A stretch of DNA of 32,000 bases from Candidatus Uzinura diaspidicola str. ASNER (GTDB lineage Bacteria > Bacteroidota > Bacteroidia > Flavobacteriales > Blattabacteriaceae): the NCBI GenBank assembly GCA_000331975.1, contig CP003263.1, positions 120,001-152,000 on the forward strand, given 5' to 3'. Under the pieces are notes generated by a model. The model saw only the letters and a program-made list of their open reading frames with translations. It was not told the origin of the DNA and ran no database searches. Positions 1,816 through 26,865 of this stretch are shown here, piece after piece. The position numbers were made by a program, and so were the translations under genes. Numbering within the stretch: the stretch's first letter is position 1; every line of letters begins with the position of its first letter.

Positions 1816-2367
1816 ATGTATATTATATTAATAGGGTATATGGGTAGTGGTAAGACTACTGTAGGTAGTTTATTATCTTTTTCTTTAGTAAAAAAATTTT
1901 ACGATTTAGATGATATTATTATTACTTGGAAAAACCAAGATATACATAATATCTTCGTTAAAAACGGTGAAAATTATTTTAGAAAAATTGAAACAGATGT
2001 CTTACAGTTTTTAAGAAGTATAAAAAAAAAAATTGTTCTTTCTACAGGAGGAGGAACTCCTTGTTTTAGTAACAATATTTATTTTTTGAATAGGTTAGGA
2101 ATAACCTTTTATTTACATCTTTCTCCAGAAGAAATTTTTAAACGTATCCGTTATCAAAAATATAAACGCCCACTGATTTCATCATTATCAGATGATAAAC
2201 TTCTATATTTTATCCATAAACACATTTCAAATCGTATTAAATATTATAATAAATCAATTTATAAACTAGAAATAGTAAATCGTTTTCCTGAAGAAATTGC
2301 TTTTTCTATTCATAAAAAATTATCTATTATTTACTATAATAATGGAATTATTAAGCCATTTAAGTAA
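1816..2367 (+). CDS. aroK: Shikimate kinase
   Basis: N-terminal P-loop IILIGYMGSGKTTVG, an FxDxD-like motif (FYDLDD), and STGGG. Size is about 180 aa. Confidence 0.85.
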   Translation: MYIILIGYMGSGKTTVGSLLSFSLVKKFYDLDDIIITWKNQDIHNIFVKNGENYFRKIETDVLQFLRSIKKKIVLSTGGGTPCFSNNIYFLNRLGITFYLHLSPEEIFKRIRYQKYKRPLISSLSDDKLLYFIHKHISNRIKYYNKSIYKLEIVNRFPEEIAFSIHKKLSIIYYNNGIIKPFK

Positions 2368-3571
2368 CATTTTACCGTTAAGAATGCATATCTTAATTGC
2401 CGTAAGTGGTGGATTAGATAGTATGGTACTGCTAGAAATTTTAAAATATACCAAATTATATATAAGTGTAGTGCATGCAAATTTTCAACTAAGATATAGT
2501 GACTCAAAGGAAGATGAATGTTTTATTAAAGATTTTTGTAAACATCAAAAAATTCCTTTCTACAATAAAAAGTTTAAAACTAAAACCTATAGTATAGAAA
2601 AAAAAAAATCTATACAAATGGCTGCAAGGAGTTTACGTTATGGTTGGTTTTTTAGAATTTTAAAAGATATAGACGCAAGTTATATAGTTTTAGGACATCA
2701 TTTAGATGATACAATAGAAACTTTTTTTATGAATTTATTTCGTTCTTCTAATTTAAAAGGATTAGTAAGTATCCCAGAAATTTCTAAATTTTTATTGCGA
2801 CCTTTATTGCCATTCACTAAAACAAAAATATTGCAATTTGCTAATATTAATAATATTTGGTGGAGAGAAGATATAAGTAATCAAGATTTTAAATATTTAC
2901 GAAATACTATTCGTAATGATCTTATAACTAATTATTATGATAGAAATTCTAAAACTCTTTTCTTCTTAAGAAGAGATTACATACTTATACAGCAGTCAAT
3001 CAGTATTATATTTAAAATAATAACTATAATTTTTGTGAATTATACTTTTTATTGGGAACTAAATACAAGTAAATTAAAAAAAATAAAACCACTTAATGGT
3101 TATTTATATAGATTGTTTTCTCCTTATGGTTTCTGTAATCTTCTTGATATAGAGAGATTTTTACATACTTCAACTGGAAAACATATCTATTCTAAAAGAT
3201 ATAGATTACTACACTATAGAAGACGTTTGGTCTTTAATTATCAACAGGAAAGGCATAAAAGATATCCTTTTAAATTTCATCTTGAAGTTAATGATTTTAT
3301 GGATCATAAGGCTCTGATTTCTATAGATTTTTCTATAATATCTTGGCCTATTTCCTTAAGAAATTGGAAAAAAGGAGATCTTTTTTTTACTTCTTTAAGA
3401 AAAAAAAAAATAAGTAAACTCCTTAAAGAGTATAAATTAAGTATATTTGAAAAAGAAGAAATTTTCATTCTTATGAATGCTGATAAGAAAATTATTTGTA
3501 CCATTAATATGGTTATAAATTTTTTATTTAAAATTACATTAAAAACTAATATGATATTAAACATATTTTAA
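2342..3571 (+). CDS. tilS: tRNA(Ile)-lysidine synthetase
   Basis: PP-loop motif ILIAVSGGLDSMVL followed by LGHHLDD. I moved the start to ATG 2342 (MELLSH...), which sits about 20 aa before SGGLDS as is usual. ATG 2384 is an alternative that avoids the 26-nt overlap with aroK. The 2297 start in the ORF track is probably an artefactual extension. Confidence 0.85.
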   Translation: MELLSHLSNILPLRMHILIAVSGGLDSMVLLEILKYTKLYISVVHANFQLRYSDSKEDECFIKDFCKHQKIPFYNKKFKTKTYSIEKKKSIQMAARSLRYGWFFRILKDIDASYIVLGHHLDDTIETFFMNLFRSSNLKGLVSIPEISKFLLRPLLPFTKTKILQFANINNIWWREDISNQDFKYLRNTIRNDLITNYYDRNSKTLFFLRRDYILIQQSISIIFKIITIIFVNYTFYWELNTSKLKKIKPLNGYLYRLFSPYGFCNLLDIERFLHTSTGKHIYSKRYRLLHYRRRLVFNYQQERHKRYPFKFHLEVNDFMDHKALISIDFSIISWPISLRNWKKGDLFFTSLRKKKISKLLKEYKLSIFEKEEIFILMNADKKIICTINMVINFLFKITLKTNMILNIF

Positions 3572-3643: not shown

Positions 3644-4639
3644 ATGAAAGAAATAACAAAGAATACCTATTTTAAATGGTATTATAATATGTTTTATTGG
3701 AGAAGATTCGAAGAAAAGTGTCGTTCTTTGTATATTAAACAAAAAATTAGAGGATTTTTACATCTATATTCTGGACAAGAAGCTATTCCTGCCGGATTAG
3801 CTCATGTAATGGATATGAACAAAGATAGTATGATAACTGGATATCGTTGCCATATATTACCTATGGCTATTGGAGTAGATCCTAAAAAAATAATGGCTGA
3901 ATTATATGGAAAAAATACAGGTACTTCTTGTGGAATGGGTGGTTCTATGCATATATTTAGTAAAGAACATCGATTTTATGGAGGGCATGGAATTGTGGGA
4001 GGGCAAATCCCTTTGGGATCTGGGATTGCTTTCGCAGATAAATATTTTGATAGGAATGCAGTAACTATTACTTTAATGGGAGATGGTGCAGTTCGTCAAG
4101 GGGCCCTACATGAAAGCTTTAATTTAGCTATTCTTTGGAAACTTCCAGTAATTTTTATGTGCGAAAATAATCTATATGCTATGGGTACCTCTGTGGTAAG
4201 AACTACAAATTTGACAGATATCTATAAAATAGGTAGTTCTTATGATATTCCATCTAGACCTGTTGACGGTATGAATCCAATAAAAATAGCTGAAGCTGCA
4301 GATGAAGCTTTGGAGCGAGCAAGGAATGGAAAAGGTCCAACGTTTTTAGAACTAAAAACATATAGATTTAGAGGTCATTCTATGTCAGATGCTGAACCTT
4401 ATCGAAATAAAGAAGAAATAGAAAAATATAAAAAAAATGATCCTATTTTATTTGTAAAAAAACATTTATTAAATAATAATTGGGCCAATGAAGAAACATT
4501 TAAAGTAATAGAAGAAGAAGTTAAAAATAGTATAGAGGAATGTGTAGAATATGCAGAAAAATCAGATTTTCCCCCAATAGAAAATATGTATAATATGGTC
4601 TATGACACGGCCCTTTACCCCTTTTGGGAAAGAAGATAA
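3644..4639 (+). CDS. pdhA: Pyruvate dehydrogenase E1 component, alpha subunit
   Basis: RRFEEK...IRGFLHLYSGQEA, the ThDP-binding region GDGAVRQGALHESFN, and RFRGHSMSD. 331 aa. Confidence 0.93.
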   Translation: MKEITKNTYFKWYYNMFYWRRFEEKCRSLYIKQKIRGFLHLYSGQEAIPAGLAHVMDMNKDSMITGYRCHILPMAIGVDPKKIMAELYGKNTGTSCGMGGSMHIFSKEHRFYGGHGIVGGQIPLGSGIAFADKYFDRNAVTITLMGDGAVRQGALHESFNLAILWKLPVIFMCENNLYAMGTSVVRTTNLTDIYKIGSSYDIPSRPVDGMNPIKIAEAADEALERARNGKGPTFLELKTYRFRGHSMSDAEPYRNKEEIEKYKKNDPILFVKKHLLNNNWANEETFKVIEEEVKNSIEECVEYAEKSDFPPIENMYNMVYDTALYPFWERR

Positions 4640-4659
4640 AACAATTTATTTTTATTAAA

Positions 4660-5883
4660 ATGGCAGAATTTATAACTATGCCCCGATTAAGCGATACAAT
4701 GGAAGAGGGGATTATAATAAAATGGCATAAAAAAGTTGGTGAAAAGATTTCAGAAGGAGATTTATTAGCTGAAATAGAAACTGACAAAGCAATTCAAGAA
4801 TTTGAATCAGAATTTAATGGCTATATACAATATATAGGAATACCAGAAGGTAAAAGTGCAAAAGTAGATAGTTTACTAGCAATTATAGGAGAAAGTACAG
4901 AGACAAAAATAGATATAAATAATATACTTTCTCTATATAAAACTAAGAATAAAACTAAGAATGAAACTAAGAATGAAACTAAGAATGAAACTAAGAATGA
5001 AACTAAGAATGAAACTAAGAATGAAACTAAGAATGAAAGATTTTTAGTTTCTCCATTAGCAAAAATAATGGCAAAACAAAAGTCAATTTCTTTAGAAGAT
5101 ATTAAAGGAAGTGGAACAAATGGACGAATTATAAAAAGAGATATAGAAAAATATCAAATAGATATTTCTAAAAATATTAATGCTTCTACTACTCATTTAA
5201 CTGCAAATGCAGTTATTAACTCTTCAATAAGAAAAATAATTGCCAAAAGGCTAGCAGAATCTAAGTTTACTGCTCCTCACTATTACTTGATGATGGATAT
5301 TGATATGAAAAATTCTATTAAATCTAGGTCAATCATCAATAAAAATTTAAAAGAAGAAGAAAAAATATCTTTTAATGATTTTATTATTAAAGCGGCTGCT
5401 TTATCCTTAAAAGACAATCCTCAAATAAATTCTTCATGGAAAAATGATAAAACTATTTATCATAGTAATATTCATATTGGAATAGCTATAGCGGTAGAAG
5501 AAGGTTTACTTGTCCCTGTAATTCTTCATGCAGATAAAAAAACCCTTCTACAAATTTCTTTAGAAGTTAAAGAAAAAGCTAGAAAAGCTAGAACCCGTAA
5601 GATTTCTCAAGAAGAAATGGAAGGAAGTACTTTTACAATTTCTAATTTAGGTATGTTTGGTATAGAAAGTTTTACCTCTATTATCAATCAACCAAATTCT
5701 TGTATTCTTTCTGTTGGTGCAATTTTGGAAAAACCTATTATAAACAATGGTTTAGTTGTTCCAGGAAATATTATGAAAATAAGTTTAGCTTGTGATCATC
5801 GTGTAGTAGATGGAGCTATTGGAAGTAGCTTCTTACAGAGTATTAAAAAATATTTAGAAGATCCAATTCTTATGATAATTTAA
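4660..5883 (+). CDS. pdhC: Dihydrolipoamide acetyltransferase (E2) of the pyruvate dehydrogenase complex
   Basis: Lipoyl domain ([11 protein letters not shown]...ETDKA), peripheral-subunit-binding domain ([27 protein letters not shown]), and catalytic domain with DHRVVDG. I moved the start to ATG 4660 ([10 protein letters not shown]). Confidence 0.9.
4939..5034 (+). repeat. In-frame 12-bp tandem repeat, 8 copies (2 x AAAACTAAGAAT, then 6 perfect GAAACTAAGAAT), encoding KTKN-KTKN-(ETKN)x6 in the E2 inter-domain linker
   Basis: Read directly from the sequence. The period is 12 and the copies run head to tail from 4939 to 5034, with a partial GAAA following. Confidence 0.96.
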
Positions 5884-8315
5884 AATATCTTAATTGTTTC
5901 AACAGCAGCAATCGTATCTCCTTTTTTTAAATTTATCAATTTAACTCCTTGTGTAGCTCGCCCCATAATTCGTAGCTCTGAGACAGATAATCTAATGGTA
6001 TAACCAGATTTATTAATTATGATTATATCATTGGTCTCTGTTACATTTTTAATAGCAATTAAATTTCCTGTTTTTCTAGTAATATTAAAGGTTTTCACTC
6101 CTTTACAATATCTATTAGTTACTCTATAATCATCTAACAAAGATCTTTTTCCATATCCTTTTTCTGAAACTACTAAAATATCCTCTTTTATTTCTTTTTC
6201 TATGCATACCATTCCTATAACTTTATCATTTTTTTCTATAAGGTTTATTCCTACTACTCCAATAGCAGTTCGTCCCATTGAACGAACTTTATCTTCTGAA
6301 AATCTAATGGCTTTACCACTTTTAATAGCTAAAATAATTTCACATTGTCCGTTAGTTAGTTTAGCTTCTAGCAGCTTATCTCCTTCACGAATAGAAATTG
6401 CCTTTATTCCATGTATTCTCGGCTTAGAATACTGTCCTAAAGGCGTTTTTTTTATATTTCCATTCTCTGTTACCATTACAACATAATGTTTTTTCACATA
6501 TTTAGAATCCTTAAAATTACCTAGAATAATATATGCTTGTACTTTATCTTCTGGTAGAATTTGAATCAAGTTCTGTATAAATCTTCCCTTAGATTTTTTA
6601 GATCTTTCAGGAACCTCATAAACACGCTTACAATAACATTTACCTTTTTTTGTAAAAAGAAGCATATATTGATGGTTTGATGCTACGAGTATATGTTCTA
6701 GAAAATCTTCATTTTTTGTGCTAGCTCCTCTATTTCCTATACCCCCTCTCAATTGTCTTTTATATTCTGAAAGAGGAGTACGTTTTATATATCCCTTATT
6801 AGAGATAGTTAATACCATCTGTTCATCGTAAATTAAATCTTCTATAGTTACTTCTTTACCAAAAGATTCAATTAATGTCCTGCGAGGATCTGAATATTTA
6901 TTCTTAATTTCTAGTAATTCATTTTTTATTATTTTCATACTAAGTTGCTTGTGTTCAAGAATTTCTTGATTTTTTTTTATAGACTTAGAAAGTTCATCAA
7001 CCTCATATTTGATTTTTTCATGTTCCAATCCTGTTAAACGTTGTAGACGTATATCTAAAATAGCACGAGTCTGTCTTTCAGACAATTTAAATTTTTTTCC
7101 AAGTTCTTCACAGGCTTTATCAGGTGTTTTAGAAGTTTTAATATGAGTAATTACTATATCTAAATTATCTAATGCCACCAATAATCCATCCAAAAGATGA
7201 CACCGATCTTTTGCTTTTTGCAACTCAAATTGAGTCCTACGAATAACAATCTCATGCCTATGAGAGACAAAATATTTAATTAACTTTTTTAAGTTAAGCT
7301 GTAGGGGTTGTCCATTTACTAATGCGATATTATTGATGTTAAATGATGTTTGTAACATTGTTTTTTTAAACAAATTATTAAGTATAATATTTGGCGAGGC
7401 ATCTTGTTTTAAGTTGAAAACAATACGAATTCCTTTTCGATTAGATTCATCACGAATATTTAAAATTCCTTCTAATCTACCTTCTTTAACTAATTCGGAA
7501 GTTTTAGAAATCATTTCTGCCTTATTAACTTGATAAGGGATTTCATCTACAATAATACAATTTCTTTTGTTTATTTCTTCTAATCTAACTTTAGCACGTA
7601 AAATTATTCTGCCTTTTCCAGTTCTAAAAGCTTCCTGTATTCCTTCTATTCCATAAATAATTCCCCCAGTAGGAAAATCAGGAGCTTTTATATATTTAAT
7701 AAAATCATCAACATTAATTTCAGGATTATCAATATAAGCACAAATAGCGTCTATGCACTCACATAAATTATGAGGAGCCATATTAGTTGCCATACCAACT
7801 GCAATTCCCGAAGAACCATTCATTAAAAGGTTTGGAATGCGAGTAGGAAGAACAGTAGGTTCTTCTAAGGAATCGTCAAAATTAAATTGAGTTTTGACAG
7901 TTTTTTTATCAAGCTCAGTGAGCATTTCTTCAGAGATTTTTTGCAAACGCACTTCTGTATATCTCATTGCAGCTGGAGAATCACCATCTACAGAACCAAA
8001 ATTACCTTGTCCATCTATCAATAAATAACGTAAAGACCATGCTTGTGCCATTCTTACCATAGTTTCATAAACAGAAATATCGCCATGAGGATGATACTTA
8101 GCAAGAACTTCACCAACGACCCTAGCAGATTTTTTATATGGTCTATTGAATATCATACCAAGTTCATACATACTAAAAAGCACACGTCGATGCACAGGTT
8201 TTAATCCATCTCTAACGTCAGGTAAGGCTCTTGAAACTATAACAGACATAGAATAGTCTATGTAGGATGTTTTTATTTCATTTTCAATATTAATCGGTAT
8301 AAGGTTTTCAGACAT
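5880..8315 (-). CDS. gyrA: DNA gyrase subunit A (the portion from the internal ATG at 8315; no stop codon separates it from the aroB frame upstream)
   Basis: From M360 of the 1170-aa ORF: [54 protein letters not shown], and QGNFGS..D.AAMRYTE with the active-site Tyr context. C-terminal beta-pinwheel repeats follow. 811 aa, a normal GyrA length. Confidence 0.95.
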
Positions 8316-9392
8316 ATTAAAATTTAATTTTTTTATTAAGAGAAGTGCATTTTTAATGTTTTCCATAGAAATTTTATGATCAAAACTACAGTTACCAATT
8401 AATTTTAATAAGGAAAATCTTATGTATCCTTTTATATTTTTCTTATCATGTTGTATATGATTAATAATTTTTTGTATTACAAAAGTTTTAATGATGGGAA
8501 AACTATAACTATCTAAAATAGTATTTTTAATATCTTCGTATTGCGATATAGGAAACTTATTAAAAAGGTAAGAAATCCATGATTCACAAATAATTCCTAT
8601 TGCTATAGCTTCTCCATGTAAAAAAGTAAAATTCTCTATGAGAAAAGAACTCTCTATTCCATGTCCTATTGAATGACCAAAATTAAGGATTTTTCGTAAT
8701 CCTTTTATTTCATAAGGATCTTTTTTAACAATATTTTGTTTTATAGTTATAGATGCAAAAATTTCTGCATTCCAGATATATTTTTTTTCTATAAATTTAT
8801 TTTTAAGTTTTATCCATAGATTTTTATCGTAAATCAACCCATGTTTTAAAATTTCTGCTTTACCTGAAATTATTTCTCTATAACATAAGGTTTTCAAATA
8901 ATGAAAATCTATAATAATAATTATAGGAAAACTAAATACTCCAATTTCATTTTTAATATGATCTAAGTCTATTCCAGTTTTTCCTCCAATAGAGGCATCT
9001 ACCATAGACAACAAAGTAGTCGGAATATGAATAAAATCAAAGCCTCTCTTATAAATAGAAGCAGAAAATCCTCCTATATCATTAATAACTCCTCCTCCTA
9101 AATTTATAAGAAGGCTATTTCTATCAGCTCTACATGCTGATAGAGATCTCCAAATATAGAGAGAACTTTCTATATTTTTAACTTTTTCTCCAGGAGAAAT
9201 ACATATAACTTGAGATTTTCTTAAAAAAGAAACTTTATTTTGTAAATGTTTTAAACAGAATTTATATGTATTTATGTCACATAAAATAAATAATTTTGAT
9301 CTATTATTTTTAGATAGATATTTTTTAAATTTTTTGTATGATGTTTTTCCAAAAAAAATAGGATAATTTGTTGTTGATATTATTTTTTTCAC
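8316..9392 (-). CDS. aroB: 3-dehydroquinate synthase, full length but lacking its own stop codon; it reads directly into gyrA
   Basis: The first 359 codons of the 1170-aa ORF carry [34 protein letters not shown] and HGEAIAIG, which match the nucleotide and metal binding motifs of AroB. Length matches free-standing AroB (about 360 aa). The last codons K-L-N-F-N are followed at once by the gyrA ATG. Confidence 0.88.
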
Positions 9393-9428
9393 TAAGCTAA
9401 AATAGACATTTTTATAAAATAGTATGCA

Positions 9429-10337
9429 TTAATCAATAAAAGTCATAATACGATTTAAAAAATATAATGGATTTTCTCTATCCCAATCACTACTAATTAA
9501 AGTAGGTAATGCCCCAATATATGGAATCTAACTATAGTTATATTTATTAGTTTCTTTTCCATTTAGAATAATTTTTTTCCCATGTTTATATTTGATATAT
9601 AGATAATATCTCCTTTTTTTGGAACAAATAATGGACCGTAATTATCAATATTTCTTGTAAAACTTATAGTTTTCAATGTTGCTAGTTTTTTAGCATATAA
9701 GGATGTAAGAAAAATTTTGTATAGATAATATTTTATTGTTCTTTTTTTTGTTCATATTTAAGAAATATGATATCGTGTTCAAAGGAATTTCTTTTGTTTT
9801 CTTTAATTTTCCCTCTTTAATTTTCCCTCTTTAATTTTCCCTCTTTAATTTTCCCTCTTTAATTTTCCCTCTTTAATTTTCCCTCTATCTACCTGTAGAT
9901 ATTGGATGCCATCATAATCGTATAGATAGTTAAATACACTTGTTTCCCCTTTTTTTAGCTTAGTAAATTCTGGGAGTCTTAGATCTAATGGTATAGTTTA
10001 TTGAAAAAGAGGAATGCGTAAACCGTATTCTCCAATTAATAAAGTTCGTTCAATAGAAGAGCTAGGGATAAGCTAATATTATTGCTTCAAATATCACCGT
10101 ATCTTTATTTAGATTATGAAAAGGAAGATAATTTATATCCATATATGTAAAATCCAAATAGAATATAAACTCTACCCAAAGAATTCCATTCATTATTACA
10201 GATATAACAGTGAGAAAAAATAATATTAGCCTACAAGCAAAAAGGACCAAAACTTATGTATCAGCTTTCTGATAAAGACGCCAAGTACCTATAAAATATA
10301 TCAACTGTAAAATTATAAAGTTGGGAATAAAATTCAT
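9429..10337 (-). pseudogene. lepB: Signal peptidase I remnant with multiple stops, frameshifts and internal deletions
   Basis: Minus-strand fragments lie in different frames. ATG at 10337 gives MNFIPNFIILQLIYFIGTWRLYQKADT* (flavobacterial LepB N-terminus type ...LGTWKLY.KAG). A catalytic Ser box LIPSSSIERTLLIGE lies near 10045-10080. YGLRIPLFQ*...RLPEFTKLKKGETSVFNY follows. RNIDNYGPLFVPKKGDIIYI lies near 9590-9650. The C-terminus reads IPYIGALPTLISSDWDRENPLYFLNRIMTFID* with the stop at 9429-9431. The position directly downstream of dapB fits what I recall of flavobacterial gene order (not checked here). Confidence 0.75.
9801..9884. repeat. Perfect 14-bp tandem repeat CTTTAATTTTCCCT, 6 copies, inside the lepB remnant
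   Basis: Read directly: six identical head-to-tail units from 9801 to 9884, followed by a partial CT. The unit length is not a multiple of three. Confidence 0.97.
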
Positions 10338-10340
10338 AGC

Positions 10341-11283: not shown

Positions 11284-11577
11284 AAAGTAGGACACTTTAT
11301 TGCATTTTATCATTCAACGATAAATGAGGAAAGTCCGGGCACTGGGTTTAGCACAATGGGTAATACCCATCCATTGCGAAATGAGGATAAGTGCAACAGA
11401 AAGAAAATATAGCTAGGTTGTAGTGAAATCAGGCAAACTCTGTGCTGTGAAATGCCATTTTTACCGGTAAAATTTAGCCCAACCTTCCGGTTGGTCGGCA
11501 GTTAGCGATAAGTGGTAACTCTTATTCTAGATAAATAATAAAGGTTACAAACAGAATCCGGCTTATAGCTCTACTTT
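11284..11577 (+). ncRNA. rnpB: RNase P RNA (bacterial type A, reduced to about 294 nt)
   Basis: Universal P4 halves are present: GAGGAAAGTCCGGGC (11326-11340) and ACAGAATCCGGCTTAT (11551-11566). Other conserved blocks are AAGTGCAACAGAAAG, TAGTGAAATCAGGCAAACTC and TTCTAGATAAATAA. A P1 pairing joins AAAGTAG (11284-11290) with CTACTTT (11571-11577). The ends are approximate. Confidence 0.88.
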
Positions 11578-12528
11578 TTTTCTTTTTATTACTCTTTTTA
11601 CTTTTTTTACAATAGAAGTTTTATCTATTTTATATTTTTTAATAAGTTCTATTTGTTTCCCACTTTCTCCAAAAGTATCATTAACTGCTACAAATTCTTG
11701 AGGTTTAGGGAGATGATTTACTAAAATACGTGCAATACTTTCACCTAATCCTCCTAAATAGTTATGTTCTTCAGCTGTGACTACACAGCCAGTTTTTTCA
11801 ATAGATTGAAGAATAAGTTCTTCATCAAGAGGCTTTATAGTGTGAATATTAATAATATCACAGGTAATTCCTTCTTCTACTAAAGTTTTATATGCTTTAA
11901 GTGATTCCCAAACTAAATGTCCAGTTGCAATGATACTGACATCATTTCCTTCCGTTAAAACAATACCTTTACCAATTTTGAAATCATGGTTCTTAGTAAA
12001 ATTGGGTACTGAAGGTCTTCCAAATCGTAAATAAGTAGGTACTTCAGACTTAGATATTGCTAATGTAGCTTTATATGTTTGAGAAAAATCACAAGTATTT
12101 ATAACTGTCATTCCTGGAAGCATCTTTATCATTCCTATGTCTTCTAAGATTTGATGTGTTGCCCCATCTTCACCTAAACTAATTCCAGCATGTGAAGCAC
12201 ATATTTTAACATTTTTTTCTGAATAAGCAATAGACTGACGAATTTGGTCATAAACTCTAGAAGAAGAAAAATTAGCAAATGTCCCAGTAAATGGGATACA
12301 GCCGCCAATAGCTAAACCAGCAGCCATTCCTATCATATTTGATTCTGCAATTCCTACTTGAAAAAACCTTTCAGTAAACTCTTCAGAAAACCTTTTCATG
12401 CAAAGTGATCCTGTTAAATCAGCGCAAAGAGCTACTATTCTTTCATTATTTCTCCCTAATTCTAAAAGAGCTTCGCCAAAACCTGCCCTAGTTTCTTTTA
12501 ACTCTTTTTTATAACTATCATTTATCAT
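11563..12528 (-). CDS. tkt: Transketolase, C-terminal section (pyrimidine-binding and C-terminal domains)
   Basis: RAGFGEAL, FQVGIAESNMIGMAAGLA and SHAGISLGEDGATHQ. 321 aa. Its start overlaps the end of the N-terminal section by 11 nt. Confidence 0.9.
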   Translation of the reverse strand: MINDSYKKELKETRAGFGEALLELGRNNERIVALCADLTGSLCMKRFSEEFTERFFQVGIAESNMIGMAAGLAIGGCIPFTGTFANFSSSRVYDQIRQSIAYSEKNVKICASHAGISLGEDGATHQILEDIGMIKMLPGMTVINTCDFSQTYKATLAISKSEVPTYLRFGRPSVPNFTKNHDFKIGKGIVLTEGNDVSIIATGHLVWESLKAYKTLVEEGITCDIINIHTIKPLDEELILQSIEKTGCVVTAEEHNYLGGLGESIARILVNHLPKPQEFVAVNDTFGESGKQIELIKKYKIDKTSIVKKVKRVIKRKKVEL

Positions 12529-13357
12529 AATCTCCTATAGTTTCAGGAAGTTGATGCAATGCTTTTTTAAGTTCTTCATCGTTTGGCGATTTACCATGCC
12601 ATTGATAGGACCCATTCATAAAGTCTACGCCATGTCCCATTTCTGTATGTAGAATTATACATATTGGTTTACCTTTTTTTGCTTTTTTTTTAGCCTTTTG
12701 TAATATTTTTATAACAGAATTAATGCAGTTTCCTTTAGTTTCTTCTAAAACCTGCCATCCAAATGATTCAAATTTCATTTTAATATTGCCCAAATGCATC
12801 ACTTTATCAGTATTTCCATCAATTTGTTGATGATTATAATCTATAGTAGCAATATAATTATCTACTTTTTTAGCTCCTGCATATAAAATAGCTTCCCAAT
12901 TTTGGCCTTCATTAATCTCACCATCTCCATGATAACTATACGATAAATAAGAGTCATTATAAATTGTTTTTGCTTGGGCAGCTCCTAATGCTACTGACAT
13001 ACCTTGTCCCAGAGACCCTGATGCTACATGTATTCCTGGTAATTTTTCATATACACTAGGATGTCCTTGTAAACGAGAGTTAATTGTTCTAAATTTAGTT
13101 AGTTCATCTATGGAAAAATACCCTTTGCGAGCTAAAACACTATACAAAACAGCAGAAATATGTCCATTAGATAGAAAAAACATATCTTCTTCTTTTCCTT
13201 CTATTTTTTTTGTCTGAAAAGACATTATTTTATAAAAAAGTGCTATAAAATATTCAGTAGAGCCTAAAGATCCCCCAGGATGTCCTGATTTTGCATTATG
13301 TATCATCCTTAAAATATCTCTTCTAGTTTGTAAACTTATTTCTTTAAGATATATCAT
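12518..13357 (-). CDS. tkt: Transketolase, N-terminal section (ThDP-binding domain)
   Basis: SGHPGGSLG, LSNGH, and GDGEINEGQNWEA (the GDG..EG ThDP motif). 279 aa. The split two-gene form occurs in many bacteria. Confidence 0.9.
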   Translation of the reverse strand: MIYLKEISLQTRRDILRMIHNAKSGHPGGSLGSTEYFIALFYKIMSFQTKKIEGKEEDMFFLSNGHISAVLYSVLARKGYFSIDELTKFRTINSRLQGHPSVYEKLPGIHVASGSLGQGMSVALGAAQAKTIYNDSYLSYSYHGDGEINEGQNWEAILYAGAKKVDNYIATIDYNHQQIDGNTDKVMHLGNIKMKFESFGWQVLEETKGNCINSVIKILQKAKKKAKKGKPICIILHTEMGHGVDFMNGSYQWHGKSPNDEELKKALHQLPETIGDYDK

Positions 13358-13359
13358 AT

Positions 13360-14380
13360 ATAAAATATTATTTGCTTTTCTATGATCCCTATAGAACCAA
13401 TTTCAAGTATACGATTACATACAGTTTTTATCAATTCATGATAGAACATAAGTATTGTTCCTTTGAACGATATTAATGAGTTAAACGGGAATTGACTCAA
13501 GGTCAACGCATTTTTTCACCCTGAAAGAACTCTATTTTAAGAGAATCATGCTCCGTACCTAGAACCCTCTAATATATTCTTCTTGTCTTTTCTTTTGTTT
13601 AAGAAGGAAGTATGTTCTCTTAGTCGTTATGACCCATGTAAAATCACATTTTTAAAGGTGAAGCTATTCCTGATAGTGGAATGCTTGGCTATTTTTTCTA
13701 CCCTTTTTAAGGTTAGGTAGATATTTTTAAATAGTGGTTTTCCATTAAGGAGTAGAAAGGTTTTGAGCTCCTGCTGATCGTTCTTGTTCAAAAGAATAGT
13801 GGGAAATTACTTATTGTAGTAAGGTTTAATTTCTTCTAGAACTTAATCTTTGCGTTTTTCCTCTATTTTTTTGTTTTTTTGTGATTTTTGTTTGGTAGCT
13901 AGATTGATAATAAAAACTATAATTTCCTGTAAATCTATATCACAAATAGAAAATATCTATCATTAGATACAACAATTACTGTATTTCATACATTTGCTAA
14001 AAAATCTTCTAACCATCTTATAGTTTCTAGGTCAAGGTGATTCCCAAAAAGAGCATTGAGCTAGTAATCTTTAAATTTTCCATCCATTTCGTGCTAAGTT
14101 TTTTATGTTGCAGATATCTAAAATATCATCCTCCCATTTGTTCATATTTTTACTCTAATTCACCAGCTATAATCCCATCTTGTTCTGAAAATTTGTTTTT
14201 AGCATATAGCGCATCCATTTCTTTTTTATCTTGCAGCCAGAAATATGATCTTGTTCTCCTGAAAGGACTTTTTACGGATCTAAAATATCCAATGATTCCA
14301 TAACAATTACCCTTTTTTTCAAAAATATGTTTCCCTCCAAATTGAAAAGAAAGATTAGAAACTGTATAGATACTCTATAT
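13360..14380 (-). pseudogene. ABC-F family ATP-binding protein remnant (EttA/Uup/YbiT-like); frameshifted, Walker A deleted, 3' end missing
   Basis: Minus-strand fragments in shifting frames: [31 protein letters not shown] (no ATG, and a stop immediately upstream); [42 protein letters not shown] (a D-loop/H-loop region typical of ABC-F); and a second-domain piece GTILMFYHELIKTVCNRILEIGS. About 1.0 kb remains of an expected 1.6-1.9 kb. Confidence 0.7.
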
Positions 14381-14429
14381 ATTTATTATTATTATTTTTA
14401 ATAAAAATAATCTATTTAGAATACAAATT

Positions 14430-14870
14430 TTGTATAAGGAAATATTATTTTTCAATAGAAAAGCTCTTTTTAATTACGATTTTTTTGAATCGTATATAGC
14501 AGGAATCCAACTATTTGGAACAGAAATAAAATCAATAAGATTGAATAAAGTTTCTATTTCTGAAAGTTTTTGTAAAATGCAAAATAATGAACTTTATATT
14601 ATAAATATGTTCATATCAAAATATGAATGGGTTACAACATTTGAAAATTATTCTCCACGTAGAGACAGAAAATTACTTATGAAAAGTTCAGAGCTAAGAA
14701 AAATAGAATGCAAAATTAAAAAATATCGTTTTACGATAATTCCAACGAAATTATTTATTAATAAGAAAGGTTATGCCAAACTTAAAATTGTTTTAGCAAA
14801 AGGAAGAAAATTAGTTAATAAACGTGATATTATCAAATATAAAGAAATAGAAAGAGATATAATTAACTAA
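14430..14870 (+). CDS. smpB: SsrA-binding protein SmpB
   Basis: NRKALFNYDFFESYIAGIQLFGTEIKSIR...LYIINMFISKY is the canonical SmpB core. The start is TTG at 14430. 146 aa. Confidence 0.9.
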   Translation: MYKEILFFNRKALFNYDFFESYIAGIQLFGTEIKSIRLNKVSISESFCKMQNNELYIINMFISKYEWVTTFENYSPRRDRKLLMKSSELRKIECKIKKYRFTIIPTKLFINKKGYAKLKIVLAKGRKLVNKRDIIKYKEIERDIIN

Positions 14871-16309: not shown

Positions 16310-17717
16310 ATGTATAAGAAAAGGAAAAAAAATCTTTATATTATTTATAAGGCTTATAATACTTTTTTTCTTAATGAAGAGCTTTTTTTTAAGAAAACAT
16401 AATATTTTTGTTAATGTCTGGATTAATAAGTTCCATTTATTTTAGATTTGAAATTGGAGATTTGATATATACAGAAATATTTATGAATTAGATTCTATCT
16501 TATTCTTTAAAAATAAAGAAGGGTATAAAATCAAAAAGTTTCTTTTATATTACTTATTTTTTTTCGTATTAACTTTTTTTTGTGGTAGTTTCCTATTTAA
16601 ACGTATACTAAAAAAAGTAGAAGAATCTAATAGTAATAAATACAAAGGTAAAATTTGTTATGAGAGAAATAATATTGATATTACGTTTCAAGACATAGCA
16701 GGTATTGAAAGTACAAAGGAAGAAATAGAAGAAATTGTAGAGTTTCTTAAAAAGCCTATTAAATATTATTGGAAGGGAAAATCCCAAAAGGAGTTCTTTT
16801 AATTGGTCTTCCTGGTACTGGAAAAACTTTATCAGCTAAAGAAGTTGCAGGTGAAACACAAGTTCCTTTTTTTGCTTTATCTGGGTCTGATTTTGTAGAA
16901 ATGTTTGTAGGAGCGTCTCGTGTAAGAGATCTTTTAAGAAAGCAAAAGCTAAATCTCCTTCTATTATTTTTATTGATGAAATAGATGCAATAGGTCGTAC
17001 TCGTAGTAAAAATAATTATATATCTAATGATGAAAGAGAAAATACTTTAAATAAATTGCTTACAGAAATGGATGGTTTTGCTACTAAAACAAATATTCTT
17101 GATAAAGCACTTTTACGTCCTGATTTAAAAGAAAGAAAAGAAATTTTTCAAGTACATATTAGAAAGTGTAGATATCTGGCTTTAGTGGAGCAGCGTTGAT
17201 AGCTGCTAAAAAAAATCAAAATAGAATTGAACATCAGGATTTTTCTGATGCTGTATCTGGGGTAGAAAAAAAAGATAAAAGAATAAAATTTCATGACAAA
17301 CTTATAAGTTGGCTTTTAGAATTTTCAGACCCTTTAGTAAAGGTAACTATTATCCTTCGGTGAAAATCTTTAGGGTCTACGTGGTATATTACTGTCGATA
17401 GACAAATATGTGTTTTATTGGGAGGTAGAGCAGCTGAAGAAATAATTTTTGGTAATTTCCTTACAGGAGCACTTAATGATTAAGAAAATGCTACGAAACA
17501 AGCAAAGTCTATAGTAATTATATTTGGTTTAAATAAACGTATTGGAAATATTTCTTATTATGATTCTTCTGGAGAAGATGAATATACTTTCAATAAGCCT
17601 TATAGTGAAACTACTGCATATATTATTGATGAAGAAATATATCAAATTATAGAAGAGCAATATCAACGTTCTTGTAAAATTCTTGAAAAAGAAATATTGC
17701 CAATAAAATTATTTTGA
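16310..17717 (+). pseudogene. ftsH: ATP-dependent zinc metalloprotease FtsH remnant
   Basis: Fragments in three frames: [30 protein letters not shown]; a shift; [54 protein letters not shown]; a shift; [23 protein letters not shown]...[30 protein letters not shown] and RFDRQ are deleted. [14 protein letters not shown] follows. The HEXXH zinc site is lost. LGGRAAEEIIFGNFLTGALND*ENATKQAK carries a TAA at 17481-17483. About 1.4 kb remains of about 1.9-2.0 kb. The position after rsfS fits what I recall of flavobacterial gene order (not checked here). Confidence 0.85.
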
Positions 17718-23853: not shown

Positions 23854-25915
23854 AAATATTGGAATAGCGGCTCATATTGATGCAGGAAAAACTACTACTA
23901 CAGAACGCATTCTTTTTTATACTGGAATGACTTATAAAATAGGAGAAGTACATGATGGAGCTGCTACTATGGATTGGATGATTCAAGAACAAGAACGTGG
24001 TATAACTATAACTTCTGCAGCTACACGCTGTGAATGGACTTATTGTAATAATAAATATCAAATAAATCTTATTGACACACCTGGACATGTAGACTTTACA
24101 GTTGAAGTAGAACGTTCTTTACGAATATTAGATGGAATGGTTATTTTATTTAGTGCTGTAGATGGTGTAGAACCTCAGTCAGAAACAGTTAGCAGACAAG
24201 CAGATAAATATCGTATACCACGAATAGGTTTTGTAAATAAAATGGACCGTCAAGGAGCTGACTTTTTTAATGTTTGTAATGAAGTAAAAAAAAAAATAGG
24301 TATTAATCCATTGCCTTTACAGGTTCCAATAGGAAGTGAAGAAGATTTTAAAGGAGTAGTAGATATTATTTCTAATAAAGCAATAATTTGGGATGAAAAT
24401 AACTATGGAATGTCTTATAAAAGAGTTGCTATTCCAGAAAATTTAAAAGACATTGTCGAGGAATATAGAAGAAGACTAATTGAAGTATTAGCTGGATATG
24501 ATGATTTTATTCTTGAGAAATTTTTTGATGATCCAATATCTATTACTGAAAATGAGCTTATCGAAACTTTAAGAAAAGCTACTATAAAATTAGATGTTAT
24601 TCCAATGCTTTGTGGATCATCTTTTAAAAATAAAGGAGTTCAGGCAATGTTAGATGCAGTTTGTCGTTATCTTCCATCACCTGTAGATCTAGAAGATATT
24701 ATAGGAAGAAATCCAAAGACTGGCTTTCAAGAAAAAAGAAAACCTTCAGAGAAAGAACCTTTTACTGCACTAGCTTTTAAAATTTCTACAGATCCGTTTG
24801 TAGGTCGTTTAGCTTTTTTTAGAGTTTATTCTGGTAAATTGAATGCTGGATCATATATTCTTAATACGCGAACAGATAGTAAAGAACGAATTTCTCGTAT
24901 TTATCAGATGCATGCAAATAAACAAAATCCTATTAATAGTATTCAAGCAGGAGATATAGGAGCAGCAGTAGGATTTAAAGAGATAAAAACTGGAGATACA
25001 CTATGTGATGAAAAAAAACCAATTGTACTTGAAAATATTTCTTTTCCTGAGCCAGTTATTGGATTAGCTTTAGAACCTAAATATAAAGCAGACATAGATA
25101 AAATGGGTATTGCTCTTACTAAGCTTCTTGAAGAAGATCCTACTCTTCATGTTCGTACAGATTCAACCAGTGGTCAAACTATTTTATCTGGAATGGGTGA
25201 ACTTCATCTTGATATTATAATAGATAGAATGAAAAGAGAATTTAAAGTAGAAGTTATTCCAGGAGAACCTCAAGTTGAATACAAAGAAGCTCTTACTGCA
25301 AATTATAAGCATAGAGAAGTCTATAAAAAGCAAACTGGAGGTCGTGGAAAATTTGCAGATATTATTTTTATAATTGAGCCTTTAAAAGGAGGTAAAAATG
25401 GGTTAGAGTTTATTAATGCAGTAAAAGGAGGTAATATTCCTAAAGAATTTATTTCTTCAATAGAAAAAGGCTTTAAAGAAGCAATGAAAAGTGGTCCTCT
25501 TGCTAATTACGAAGTAGATGCAATAAAAATCACTTTAATTGATGGTTCTTATCATCCTGTTGACTCAGATCAACTTTCATTTGAATTAGCTGCTAAAATT
25601 GGCTTTAAAGCAGCATCGAAAAATGCTAAACCTATTCTTCTTGAACCAATTATGAAACTCGAGGTTATTACTTCAGAAGAAAATCTGGGTGATATTGTAA
25701 GTGATATTAATAGACGTAGAGGTGAAGTTTCTGGAATGGAGGATCGTAATCAGGCAAAAGTTATTAAGGCTAAAGTCCCATTAGCTGAAATGTTTGGATA
25801 TATAACTACATTAAGAACTTTATCATCAGGACGGGCAACAGCAATAATGGAATTTTCCCATTATCATGCTTCCCCCCAGAATATTGCAGAAGAAATAATC
25901 TCTAAAAGAAATTAG
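23828..25915 (+). CDS. fusA: Elongation factor G
   Basis: [30 protein letters not shown], and NKMDR. 695 aa. It overlaps the rpsG end by 26 nt. Confidence 0.97.
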
Positions 25916-26244: not shown

Positions 26245-26865
26245 ATGTCAGGTATTATAGGTAGAAAAATTGGAATGACAAATTTTTTTGAACAAAATGG
26301 AAAACATATTCCTTGTACAATTATTCAAGCTGGTCCTTGTGTTATTCTACAAATAAAAAATATTGAAAGAGATGGATATAACTCTATTCAACTAGGATTT
26401 GAAGATAAAATAAAAAAAAAAACATCTAAACCCCTTTTTGGACACTTTAAAAAAGTTAGTGTCTCTCCTAAAAAAAAACTAGCAGAATTTAAGTGTAAAA
26501 TTCCTAACAACTTTAAAATAGGTCAATATGTGGATGTAAATATATTTACTGAAGGAGATTTAGTAGATATTACGTCAGTATCTAAAGGAAAAGGATTTCA
26601 AGGTGTAGTAAAGCGTCATGGGTTTTCAGGGGTAGGACAAAGTTCACATGGTCAACATAATAGATTGAGATCTCCTGGATCTATAGGAGCAGGTTCAGAT
26701 CCTTCAAGGGTCTTTAAAGGAATGTTGATGGGTGGAAGAATGGGAGGAAGAAATGTTACTATCCATAATCTTAGACTATTGAAAATAGATATTGAAAAAA
26801 ATCTTTTACTTGTAAAAGGATCTATATCAGGCTATAATAGTGGATATGTATTAATAAGAAAATGA
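26245..26865 (+). CDS. rplC: 50S ribosomal protein L3
   Basis: [26 protein letters not shown], and GSIGA...P.RVFKG..M.GRMG. The TGA stop overlaps the rplD ATG. Confidence 0.95.

What the first reader, a model, noticed from the sequence alone, without database searches (positions are those of the whole stretch)
5880..9392. aroB has no stop codon and reads in frame into gyrA; an A7 tract at the junction would restore a stop with one A gained or lost
Seen directly: the minus-strand junction reads GCA CTT CTC TTA ATA AAA AAA TTA AAT TTT AAT ATG TCT GAA, that is ...[16 protein letters not shown]...

The first 359 codons are a complete 3-dehydroquinate synthase with all motifs intact. Codon 360 onward is a complete GyrA of 811 aa. 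No stop separates them, so the genome encodes a 1170-aa AroB-GyrA polypeptide.

The run of seven A (plus-strand T7 at 8328-8334) lies 4 codons before the gyrA ATG. With A6 the frame reads ATA AAA AAT TAA and stops at once. With A8 it reads AAA ATT AAA TTT TAA TATG, with the stop abutting the gyrA ATG.

Four explanations fit:
- a real bifunctional fusion joining an aromatic amino-acid enzyme to a topoisomerase subunit, which I do not know to have been described;
- a recent stop-loss indel, tolerated because gyrA reinitiates at its own ATG;
- polymerase slippage on the A tract that produces separate proteins;
- a homopolymer sequencing error.

A 359-aa N-terminal appendage on GyrA would sit near the GyrB-contacting N-gate region, so a fusion would affect function.
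Basis: partly seen in the sequence, partly recalled or inferred. Interest (0 to 1): 0.75.

Follow-up and report, generated by a model that had tools for sequence, protein, structure and literature searches.

The report
One-base deletion fuses aroB to gyrA
In the published genome of the scale-insect symbiont Uzinura (strain ASNER), one missing base three codons before the end of aroB removes its stop codon and joins it in frame to the neighbouring gyrase gene; none of 16-19 related symbionts shows this, so it is a one-off accident (or, less likely, a sequencing slip) and not a conserved two-function enzyme.

Summary
Window 5880-9392 (-) is one 1170-codon ORF: a complete AroB (359 codons, no stop) followed by a complete GyrA (811 aa). 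The window comes from Candidatus Uzinura diaspidicola ASNER. The identical 1170-aa CDS is already in GenBank (AGC66893.1), labelled only "DNA gyrase A subunit".

The fusion is unique to this assembly. All 19 close AroB relatives end K-[Y/H]-K-[F/Y/I]-stop, and all 16 close GyrA relatives are 810-812 aa. Nucleotide alignment shows the window lacks one base, the middle A of a conserved Tyr codon (TAT) just 3' of the A7 tract. The tract itself matches 7 homologous columns in every relative. The ancestral TAA still sits, out of frame, 1 nt before the gyrA ATG.

AroB is intact and shows no faster evolution. The gyrA ATG keeps a start-like context. There is no frameshift-stimulating RNA structure.

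Best reading: a real, lineage-specific stop-loss deletion at an indel-labile junction. It should give an AroB-GyrA chimera plus internally initiated free GyrA. A sequencing error cannot be excluded without reads. Interest is modest.

The parts
8316..9392 (-). aroB (3-dehydroquinate synthase), 359 codons, GTG start, no stop codon of its own
   Evidence: TIGR01357 scores 307.1 bits against a cutoff of 305 when scored alone, over profile positions 2-341 of 344. Pfam finds DHQ_synthase plus DHQS_C. Alignment to PDB 3clh covers the [29 protein letters not shown] and HGEAIAIG motifs.
5880..8315 (-). gyrA (DNA gyrase subunit A), 811 codons plus TAA, beginning at its native ATG (8315-8313)
   Evidence: NF004043 scores 1138.8 bits (cutoff 902) and TIGR01063 scores 1092.5. 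The N-terminus [15 protein letters not shown] matches M-x-E-[KR]-L... in 16 of 16 relatives. The active-site motif AAMRYTE is present.
8326..8327 (-). Site of the missing base: 'TT' where all relatives have 'TAT' (Tyr, third codon from the end of aroB)
   Evidence: Alignment A1 places the single gap here. Restoring the A gives ...LLLIKKYKF*, which is the consensus C-terminus of 19 of 19 relatives.
8328..8334 (-). A7 tract (codons ATA AAA AAA, which form the slippery heptamer A_AAA_AAA). It is not shortened relative to relatives.
   Evidence: It aligns to 7 columns in every relative (AAAAAAG, AAAGAAA, AAGAAAA, AAGTAAA, AAATAAA). It is one of 11 sense A runs of 7 or more in this ORF.
8317..8319 (-). 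Relic of the ancestral aroB stop codon TAA. It is now out of frame and lies 1 nt upstream of the gyrA ATG.
   Evidence: The last 13 nt before and including the ATG (aaattttaatATG) are identical to L003, L007 and L008, where this TAA terminates aroB.
5880..5883 (.). TTAA shared by the convergent stop codons of gyrA (-) and the 2-oxoacid dehydrogenase E2 gene (+)
   Evidence: Sequence read and ORF ends.

Best explanation
This is a lineage-specific single-nucleotide deletion in Candidatus Uzinura diaspidicola ASNER.

Ancestral state (shown by comparison): aroB ended ...AAA TAT AAA TTT TAA, and gyrA's ATG followed 1 nt later. The two frames were therefore offset by one base.

The event (shown): loss of the middle A of the TAT codon shifts the last codons of aroB (YKF* becomes LNFN). 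The shifted frame skips the old TAA and lands exactly in the gyrA frame. The result is a 1170-codon aroB-gyrA ORF.

Consequences (inferred):
- Ribosomes that start at aroB read through and make a chimera of about 135 kDa. Its AroB domain is intact and probably still active.
- Free GyrA is probably still made by independent initiation at its native ATG. The A/T-only upstream context of that ATG is unchanged and looks like other start sites in this Shine-Dalgarno-poor genome.
- A small fraction of free AroB (...LIKKIKF*) could arise from -1 ribosomal slippage, or from addition of one A to the transcript, at A_AAA_AAA. Both routes end at the relic TAA.

The fusion is a neutral or slightly deleterious accident of genome decay. 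It is not an evolved bifunctional enzyme.
For: - Identity and prior deposit: P0121 (AGC66893.1, Uzinura ASNER, 263,431-bp genome) is 100% identical over 1170 aa.
- Uniqueness: 19 AroB relatives at 77-87% identity are 353-376 aa long and all end K[YH]K[FYI]-stop. 16 GyrA relatives at 86-90% identity are 810-812 aa long.
- Position of the lesion: the single gap falls in the TAT codon, the A-run is column-for-column conserved in length, and the downstream 13 nt are identical to L003 and L008.
- The junction changes by indels in real lineages. The spacer between stop and ATG is 1 nt in L002, L003, L005 and L008. It is a TAATG overlap in L001 and 9 nt in L009 and L010.
- Homopolymers are otherwise read cleanly. 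None of the 11 sense A runs of 7 or more in this ORF (including A8 and A9) breaks the frame, and neither does any of the five A11 runs elsewhere in the window.
- aroB is not decaying. It scores 307 bits against 293-322 in relatives. The AroB/GyrA distance ratio is 1.44 for ASNER pairs and 1.47 for other pairs. aroK in the same window is intact.
- The gyrA ATG is the obligatory start in relatives, where the frame is closed 2-6 codons upstream. Its context here scores 4.75 bits, above all 124 internal ATGs and above 77% of true starts.
- Both termini are fusion-tolerant elsewhere. DHQS carries a C-terminal fusion in AROM polypeptides (7u5s and 6hqv). GyrA carries N-terminal fusions in single-chain GyrB-GyrA and ParE-ParC constructs (6gau, 9nx4, 2xcs, 4i3h).
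Against: - Only one assembly of this lineage exists in the data I could reach. The protein cluster is a singleton, and an exact-pattern metagenome scan found no second copy. The base count therefore has no independent confirmation.
- The lesion lies inside a 25-nt pure A/T low-complexity stretch.
- A 359-aa appendage at the GyrA N-terminus sits next to the GyrB-docking surface. It could be harmful, which would argue against fixation.
- Internal initiation, chimera stability and slippage are all inferred. None is shown.
Confidence: 0.62

Rival explanations
1. This is a sequencing or assembly error. The organism has the normal ...TAT AAA TTT TAA t ATG junction (or an A8 run), and one base was dropped from the deposited consensus. 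aroB and gyrA are then ordinary separate genes.
For: - The fusion is found in a single assembly only, with no independent sample.
- The lesion sits in a 25-nt A/T-only stretch directly after a 7-base homopolymer.
- A continuous ORF would not trigger the frameshift checks used during genome finishing (inference).
- All relatives have separate genes.
Against: - By parsimony the missing base is a lone A between two T's, not part of a homopolymer.
- The A8 alternative requires Tyr->Ile through two extra substitutions, at a position that is Tyr or His in 19 of 19 relatives.
- Longer runs (A8, A9 and five A11) in the same window are all in frame.
- A random consensus error hitting these few bases of a 263-kb genome is unlikely a priori, whereas real indels at this junction are seen in two other lineages. 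This last point is an inference.
Confidence: 0.28
2. This is an evolved, functional bifunctional AroB-GyrA enzyme, with a selected fusion that couples aromatic amino-acid synthesis to DNA topology.
For: - Both domains are complete, and AroB evolves at the normal rate.
- Both AroB and GyrA work as homodimers (general knowledge).
- Both termini tolerate fusions in other proteins.
Against: - It is not conserved: 0 of 19 AroB and 0 of 16 GyrA relatives are fused.
- The 'linker' is just the frameshifted last three codons.
- No protein matching both halves appears among 1.84 billion representatives or in the top 120 of the 90%-identity cluster search. Both searches have limited power.
- There is no functional rationale for the pairing.
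Confidence: 0.03
3. This is programmed recoding. Transcriptional slippage or -1 ribosomal frameshifting on A_AAA_AAA is the main route of expression, so mostly separate AroB (ending at the relic TAA) and GyrA are made from a formally fused gene.
For: - ATA AAA AAA forms an in-frame X_XXY_YYZ heptamer.
- Both a -1 shift and an extra A in the transcript give ...LIKKIKF* ending at the ancestral TAA.
- Only ASNER has the run uninterrupted.
- The one tRNA-Lys found in the window has anticodon UUU.
- Rescue of frameshifted endosymbiont genes at homopolymer tracts is documented (Tamas 2008 and Wernegreen 2010, as cited in PMC3971599).
Against: - A7 is shorter than the tracts of about 9-10 A or more for which efficient slippage has been reported (my own knowledge of those papers).
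- There is no downstream structure: MFE -9.7 kcal/mol, z = -1.15.
- The upstream sequence is A/T only, so there is no SD-like stimulator.
- A7 runs are abundant by chance (65 A7 or T7 runs in 32 kb).
Confidence: 0.05

Closest known systems
Fusion of adjacent same-strand genes by loss of a stop codon or a frameshift, as seen in decaying endosymbiont genomes and as the origin of 'Rosetta-stone' fusion proteins
   Same: Two neighbouring co-oriented genes with a minimal spacer are joined by a one-base indel that removes the upstream stop. Both domains stay intact.
   Different: This particular pair (DHQ synthase and gyrase A) was not found elsewhere. It is a singleton, not a conserved fusion family.
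Natural DHQ-synthase fusions: the pentafunctional AROM polypeptide (PDB 7u5s, 6hqv) and bifunctional AroK/AroB (NF010556, NF010627)
   Same: DHQS is the N-terminal module with another enzyme attached to its C-terminus (AROM). This shows the terminus tolerates an extension.
   Different: In those fusions the partners are enzymes of the same pathway and the fusions are ancient and conserved. Here the partner is functionally unrelated and the junction is accidental.
Single-chain GyrB-GyrA and ParE-ParC fusions (engineered constructs 2xcs, 6gau, 9nx4, 4i3h; eukaryotic topoisomerase II has the same order)
   Same: A large polypeptide is covalently attached at residues about 3-8 of GyrA or ParC without preventing folding.
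   Different: In those cases the attached domain is the native partner, which belongs at that position. AroB would have to be accommodated next to GyrB.
Rescue of frameshifted endosymbiont genes by polymerase slippage at poly(A) tracts (Tamas et al. 2008; Wernegreen et al. 2010; cited in PMC3971599)
   Same: An A-rich tract lies next to a frame lesion in an AT-rich insect endosymbiont, and slippage by +/-1 would restore a stop.
   Different: The tract is only 7 A. The lesion is next to the tract, not in it. Here slippage would separate two proteins and would not rescue a broken one.
dnaX-type -1 programmed ribosomal frameshifting (A_AAA_AAG)
   Same: There is an in-frame slippery heptamer A_AAA_AAA, and the one tRNA-Lys found in the window has anticodon UUU.
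   Different: There is no stimulatory downstream hairpin or upstream SD-like element, and the heptamer is not conserved.

Membership tests
3-dehydroquinate synthase AroB (TIGR01357) | Full-length match at or above the curated cutoff | tested here: met
   307.1 bits against a cutoff of 305 for residues 1-359 scored alone, over profile positions 2-341 of 344. The score is 303.3 within the fused protein. Unfused relatives score 293-322.
3-dehydroquinate synthase AroB (TIGR01357) | NAD-binding glycine motif and metal or substrate-binding motifs conserved | tested here: met
   [47 protein letters not shown] and LHGEAIAIG align with identical core residues to H. pylori DHQS 3clh. The assignment of roles to these motifs comes from my knowledge of DHQS structures.
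3-dehydroquinate synthase AroB (TIGR01357) | Stand-alone gene product that terminates after the C-terminal helix | tested here: not met
   There is no stop codon, whereas 19 of 19 relatives terminate K[YH]K[FYI]*.
DNA gyrase subunit A (NF004043 / TIGR01063) | Full-length equivalog match, catalytic Tyr motif and C-terminal beta-propeller repeats | tested here: met
   1138.8 bits (cutoff 902) and 1092.5 bits (cutoff 877). Pfam finds DNA_topoisoIV plus 5 DNA_gyraseA_C repeats. AAMRYTE is present.
DNA gyrase subunit A (NF004043 / TIGR01063) | Own initiation codon in a start-like context | tested here: met
   The ATG at 8315-8313 is homologous to the obligatory start of relatives. Its PWM score is 4.75 bits, above all 124 internal ATGs. 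Actual use of this start in vivo is not testable here.
Conserved bifunctional fusion protein (evolved multidomain enzyme) | The fusion is shared by several independent lineages | tested here: not met
   0 of 19 AroB and 0 of 16 GyrA close relatives are fused. No representative matching both halves was found.
Conserved bifunctional fusion protein (evolved multidomain enzyme) | Both activities shown for the single polypeptide | not testable with these tools
   This needs enzymology or complementation.
Programmed -1 ribosomal frameshift site (dnaX-like) | Slippery heptamer X_XXY_YYZ in the zero frame | tested here: met
   AT[A AAA AAA] in the aroB frame.
Programmed -1 ribosomal frameshift site (dnaX-like) | Downstream stimulatory RNA structure, and conservation of the site | tested here: not met
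   MFE -9.7 kcal/mol, z = -1.15, with 25 of 200 shuffles folding at least as well. The heptamer is interrupted in 5 of the 6 distinct relative sequences; L002 alone has A_AAA_AAG.
Poly(A) transcriptional-slippage rescue (Tamas 2008 type) | The frame lesion lies within a long poly(A) tract (about 9-10 A or more) | tested here: not met
   The tract is A7 and has the ancestral length. The gap maps to the adjacent TAT codon. The length threshold is from my own knowledge.

The most novel reading that the evidence does not exclude
The deletion is real, and the AroB-GyrA chimera of about 135 kDa is the main or only form of 3-dehydroquinate synthase in Uzinura ASNER. It is stable and catalytically active, so an essential amino-acid-pathway enzyme works while covalently tethered to the N-terminus of a gyrase subunit. 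Gyrase would function either with that appendage or from internally initiated free GyrA. This would be a natural example of how much accidental domain fusion a minimal genome can tolerate.
Probability: 0.3. Interest if true: 0.45.

Novelty: new member of a known kind. Interest (0 to 1): 0.3.

Why it matters
There are three modest reasons.

1. **Annotation.** The only aroB of this reference Uzinura genome is hidden inside a CDS named "DNA gyrase A subunit" (AGC66893.1). Automated metabolic reconstructions could therefore score the shikimate pathway as incomplete in a symbiont whose role is to supply essential amino acids.

2. **How fusions arise.** If the deletion is real, it is a clean natural example of a multidomain fusion born in one step from tightly packed genes (a TAA-N-ATG junction). 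It would also show that a tiny genome can tolerate an unrelated 41-kDa domain on gyrase A.

3. **Testability.** One PCR amplicon settles whether the deletion is real. One western blot or proteomics run settles which products are made.

It does not open a new class of biology.

Tried and rejected
- **Exact look-up of the 1170-aa and 811-aa products and of P0121 in the contig index**. Nothing was on record, so I could not retrieve an independent contig.
- **Genome paper by DOI and PMID**. It is not held, so the sequencing platform remains unknown. Literature searches for Uzinura plus aroB and for aroB/gyrA fusion found nothing about this junction.
- **Metagenome scan for the exact junction flank**. 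Zero hits.
- **Global search for other AroB-GyrA fusions with a chimeric query.** One search found none, but ASNER's own protein is not a cluster representative, so other fusions could be hidden the same way. One search did not recover P0121 itself, so its negative result carries little weight.
- **Internal promoter for gyrA.** A Bacteroidetes-type -7 box, TAGTTTTG, lies at 8381-8388 (-). However, TANNTTTG occurs 53 times against 54.5 expected, and the site is under coding constraint. Rejected as evidence.
- **Frameshift-stimulating structure downstream of the A-run**. Not significant.
- **Structure prediction of the chimera.** The mixed alignment A2 mis-aligned AroB sequences onto the GyrA N-terminus (18-21% apparent identity for proteins that are really 87% identical). 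I did not use it and ran no model.
- **Relaxed selection on aroB**. Not seen.
Full report
**1. The observation**

The ORF listing returns one ORF, 5880..9392 (-), 1170 aa, with a GTG start.

- Residues 11-348 match the AroB equivalog model TIGR01357 over positions 2-341 of 344.
- Residues 364-1166 match the GyrA equivalog NF004043 at 1138.8 bits, against a cutoff of 902.
- Scored alone, the AroB half reaches 307.1 bits against a cutoff of 305.
- The A7 run is at 8328-8334 and the gyrA ATG is at 8315-8313.
- Simulating A6 gives ...LLLIKN* and A8 gives ...LLLIKKIKF*.

**2. Source of the window**

A search with the GyrA half returned P0121: 1170 aa, 100% identical, from Candidatus Uzinura diaspidicola str. 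ASNER, on a 263,431-bp contig, named "DNA gyrase A subunit".

- BLASTP shows 1170 of 1170 identities to the window ORF.
- The accessions are AGC66893.1 and UniRef100_L7VMV9, and the protein is a singleton cluster.

The fused CDS is therefore already public, but its aroB half is not reflected in the name. The genome paper (Sabree et al. 2013, Environ Microbiol 15:1988; reference seen) is not held in the library. I could not verify the sequencing platform or whether the authors commented on the junction. No accessible paper mentions it.

**3. Comparison with relatives**

The 19 closest AroB proteins (P0001-P0019, 77-87% identity) come from unnamed insect-associated or metagenome assemblies with contigs up to 321 kb. 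They are evidently Uzinura-clade symbionts. All are 353-376 aa long, and all end K-[Y/H]-K-[F/Y/I]-stop.

The 16 closest GyrA proteins (P0122-P0137, 86-90% identity) are all 810-812 aa long and start M-x-E-[K/R]-L.

Gene order is conserved: dapB, then lepB or a gap, then aroB, then gyrA, then a convergent E2 gene.

I read the junction at nucleotide level in eight loci, which represent six distinct sequences. The arrangements are:

| Loci | Junction |
|---|---|
| L003, L007, L008 | ...AAA TAT AAA TTT TAA t ATG |
| L002, L005 | ...TAT AAG TAT TAA a ATG |
| L001 | ...TAT AAA TTC TAATG (overlap) |
| L009, L010 | 9-nt spacer |

In every relative the gyrA frame is closed by a stop 2-6 codons upstream of the ATG, so that ATG is necessarily the GyrA start.

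**4. Where the lesion is**

- MAFFT alignment A1 needs exactly one gap in the window sequence. The gap falls on the middle A of the conserved TAT codon.
- The window's A7 aligns with 7 columns in every relative (AAAAAAG, AAAGAAA, AAGAAAA, AAGTAAA, AAATAAA). The tract is therefore not shortened. It is merely uninterrupted.
- The 13 nt up to and including the ATG (aaattttaatATG) are identical to L003 and L008. The ancestral TAA is still present at 8317-8319 but is now out of frame.
- Restoring the A gives ...LLLIKKYKF*, which is the clade consensus.
It would need two extra substitutions.

The most parsimonious history is a single-base deletion next to the homopolymer, not within it. The ancestral stop and start were 1 nt apart, so a -1 shift lands exactly in the gyrA frame.

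**5. Real mutation or sequencing error**

I have no reads and no second sample. The cluster is a singleton and the exact-pattern scan of metagenome contigs found nothing.

Arguments for a real change:
- The missing base is not a homopolymer base.
- All 11 sense A runs of 7 or more within this ORF (including two A8 and one A9) are in frame. So are five A11 runs in other ORFs of the window. This indicates good homopolymer accuracy.
- The junction has demonstrably changed by indels in two other lineages. A random consensus error hitting these few bases of a 263-kb genome is unlikely a priori (inference).
- The genome does carry real decay nearby. There is a degraded signal-peptidase remnant between dapB and aroB (tblastn E about 1e-8). 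There are also FtsH-like AAA fragments in several frames at 16.7-17.4 kb.

Arguments for an error:
- It is a single assembly.
- The context is 25 nt of pure A/T.
- A continuous ORF escapes frameshift-based quality checks.
- A bulky N-terminal appendage on GyrA might be selected against.

I put the real deletion at about 0.6-0.7 and an error at about 0.3.

**6. What it probably does if real**

*Shown:*
- AroB is intact. All core DHQS motifs align to PDB 3clh.
- Its model score lies within the range of unfused relatives.
- Its divergence relative to GyrA is not elevated. The ratio is 1.44 for ASNER pairs against 1.47 for the others.
- aroK in the same window is intact. The shikimate pathway is therefore being maintained.
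- The gyrA ATG context (20 nt upstream, 100% A/T, 60% A) scores 4.75 bits with a position weight matrix built from 22 other starts in the window. That is above all 124 internal in-frame ATGs and above 77% of true starts in leave-one-out scoring. No start in this window shows a Shine-Dalgarno sequence, which is expected for Bacteroidota (my own knowledge).

*Inferred:*
- Ribosomes starting at aroB now run into gyrA and produce a chimera of about 135 kDa.
- Free GyrA continues to be made by initiation at M360, although any termination-reinitiation coupling is lost.
- Codons ATA AAA AAA form the slippery heptamer A_AAA_AAA. A -1 ribosomal shift, or an extra A in the transcript, both yield ...LIKKIKF* ending at the relic TAA. 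A low level of free AroB is therefore possible.
- Nothing suggests this is programmed. There is no downstream structure (MFE -9.7 kcal/mol, z = -1.15), no conservation of the heptamer, and A7 runs are abundant.

*Tolerance of the chimera is plausible:*
- DHQS naturally carries a C-terminal fusion in AROM polypeptides (7u5s and 6hqv).
- GyrA accepts N-terminal fusions at residues about 3-8 in many single-chain GyrB-GyrA and ParE-ParC constructs. In those, however, the attached domain is the native partner.

**7. Is it a bifunctional enzyme family?**

No.
- The fusion is absent from every relative.
- A chimeric query (AroB C-domain plus the first 200 aa or so of GyrA) was run against 1.84 billion cluster representatives. 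It found no protein matching both halves: every top hit aligns only from query position 162 or later.
- The same query against the 90%-identity clusters listed only PF00521-type proteins.

Both searches have limited power. P0121 itself is not a representative in the first, and it was not recovered in the second. I therefore claim only "not found".

**8. Verdict**

This is a real feature of the deposited sequence. It is best explained as a one-off stop-loss deletion at a tightly packed gene junction in a decaying endosymbiont genome. The practical consequence is for annotation, because aroB is hidden under a gyrA label. The consequence for the proteins is testable but probably non-adaptive. The A-tract-centred options are weakened because the lesion is not in the tract. 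Interest is about 0.3. In novelty terms it is a new member of a known kind (accidental fusion of adjacent genes).

Noticed in passing
window 9393-10340: The 948-nt 'intergenic' stretch between dapB and aroB holds degraded remnants of a signal peptidase I (DUF5684 plus Peptidase_S26) gene, which is intact at this position in L008 and L009. tblastn gives E about 1e-8 with fragments such as NYGPLFVPKKGD. The gene is missing entirely in L002 and L005 and partly missing in L003. Relatives therefore show three stages of decay of the same gene.
   Followed up: partly
window 16769-17363 (+): FtsH-like AAA+ fragments ([13 protein letters not shown]...; Pfam AAA, E = 1.9e-12) are split over several short ORFs in different frames. 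This is probably an ftsH pseudogene.
   Followed up: partly
window 2022-2032, 2598-2608, 3400-3410, 24286-24296, 26412-26422: There are five A runs of exactly 11, with none of 10 or 12, and all lie inside long uninterrupted ORFs (aroK, a tilS-like PP-loop gene twice, and two others). These are long enough for transcriptional slippage. I did not examine why the length is so uniform.
   Followed up: no
window 4940-5038 (+), inside the E2 acyltransferase gene 4624-5883: A near-perfect 12-nt tandem repeat (8.2 copies, 98% matches) encodes (TKNE)n in the linker between the lipoyl and E3-binding domains. E2 length varies among relatives (380, 393 and 439 aa, against 419 here), so the linker array is probably unstable.
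   Followed up: partly
window 5880-5883: The palindromic TTAA provides the stop codons of both convergent genes (gyrA on the minus strand and E2 on the plus strand), a 4-nt overlap. In relatives the two genes abut but do not overlap.
   Followed up: yes
GenBank AGC66893.1 / UniRef100_L7VMV9 (= window 5880-9392): The deposited annotation names the 1170-aa product only 'DNA gyrase A subunit'. Name-based pathway reconstructions would therefore not count Uzinura ASNER's aroB.
   Followed up: partly
L002 4858-4866; L001 5070-5076; L009 1489-1503: The aroB-gyrA junction is variable across the clade. L002 happens to carry the classic dnaX heptamer A_AAA_AAG in frame. L001 has a TAATG stop/start overlap. 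L009 and L010 have a 9-nt spacer.
   Followed up: partly
window 13357-14430: About 1.07 kb between the transketolase N-terminal gene and smpB has only short ORFs and no Rfam or tRNA hit. It may be another decayed gene.
   Followed up: no
window 11284-11581 (+) and 11563-12528 (-): The RNase P RNA (169.7 bits) overlaps by about 19 nt the 5' end of the ORF as listed for the transketolase C-terminal-half gene on the opposite strand.
   Followed up: no
tool behaviour: Word-indexed protein searches with the AroB half or with a junction-spanning query did not return P0121, the query's own parent protein. The GyrA query did return it. Long fusion proteins seem to be under-sampled by that candidate filter, so negative results for fusions from it are weak.
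   Followed up: partly
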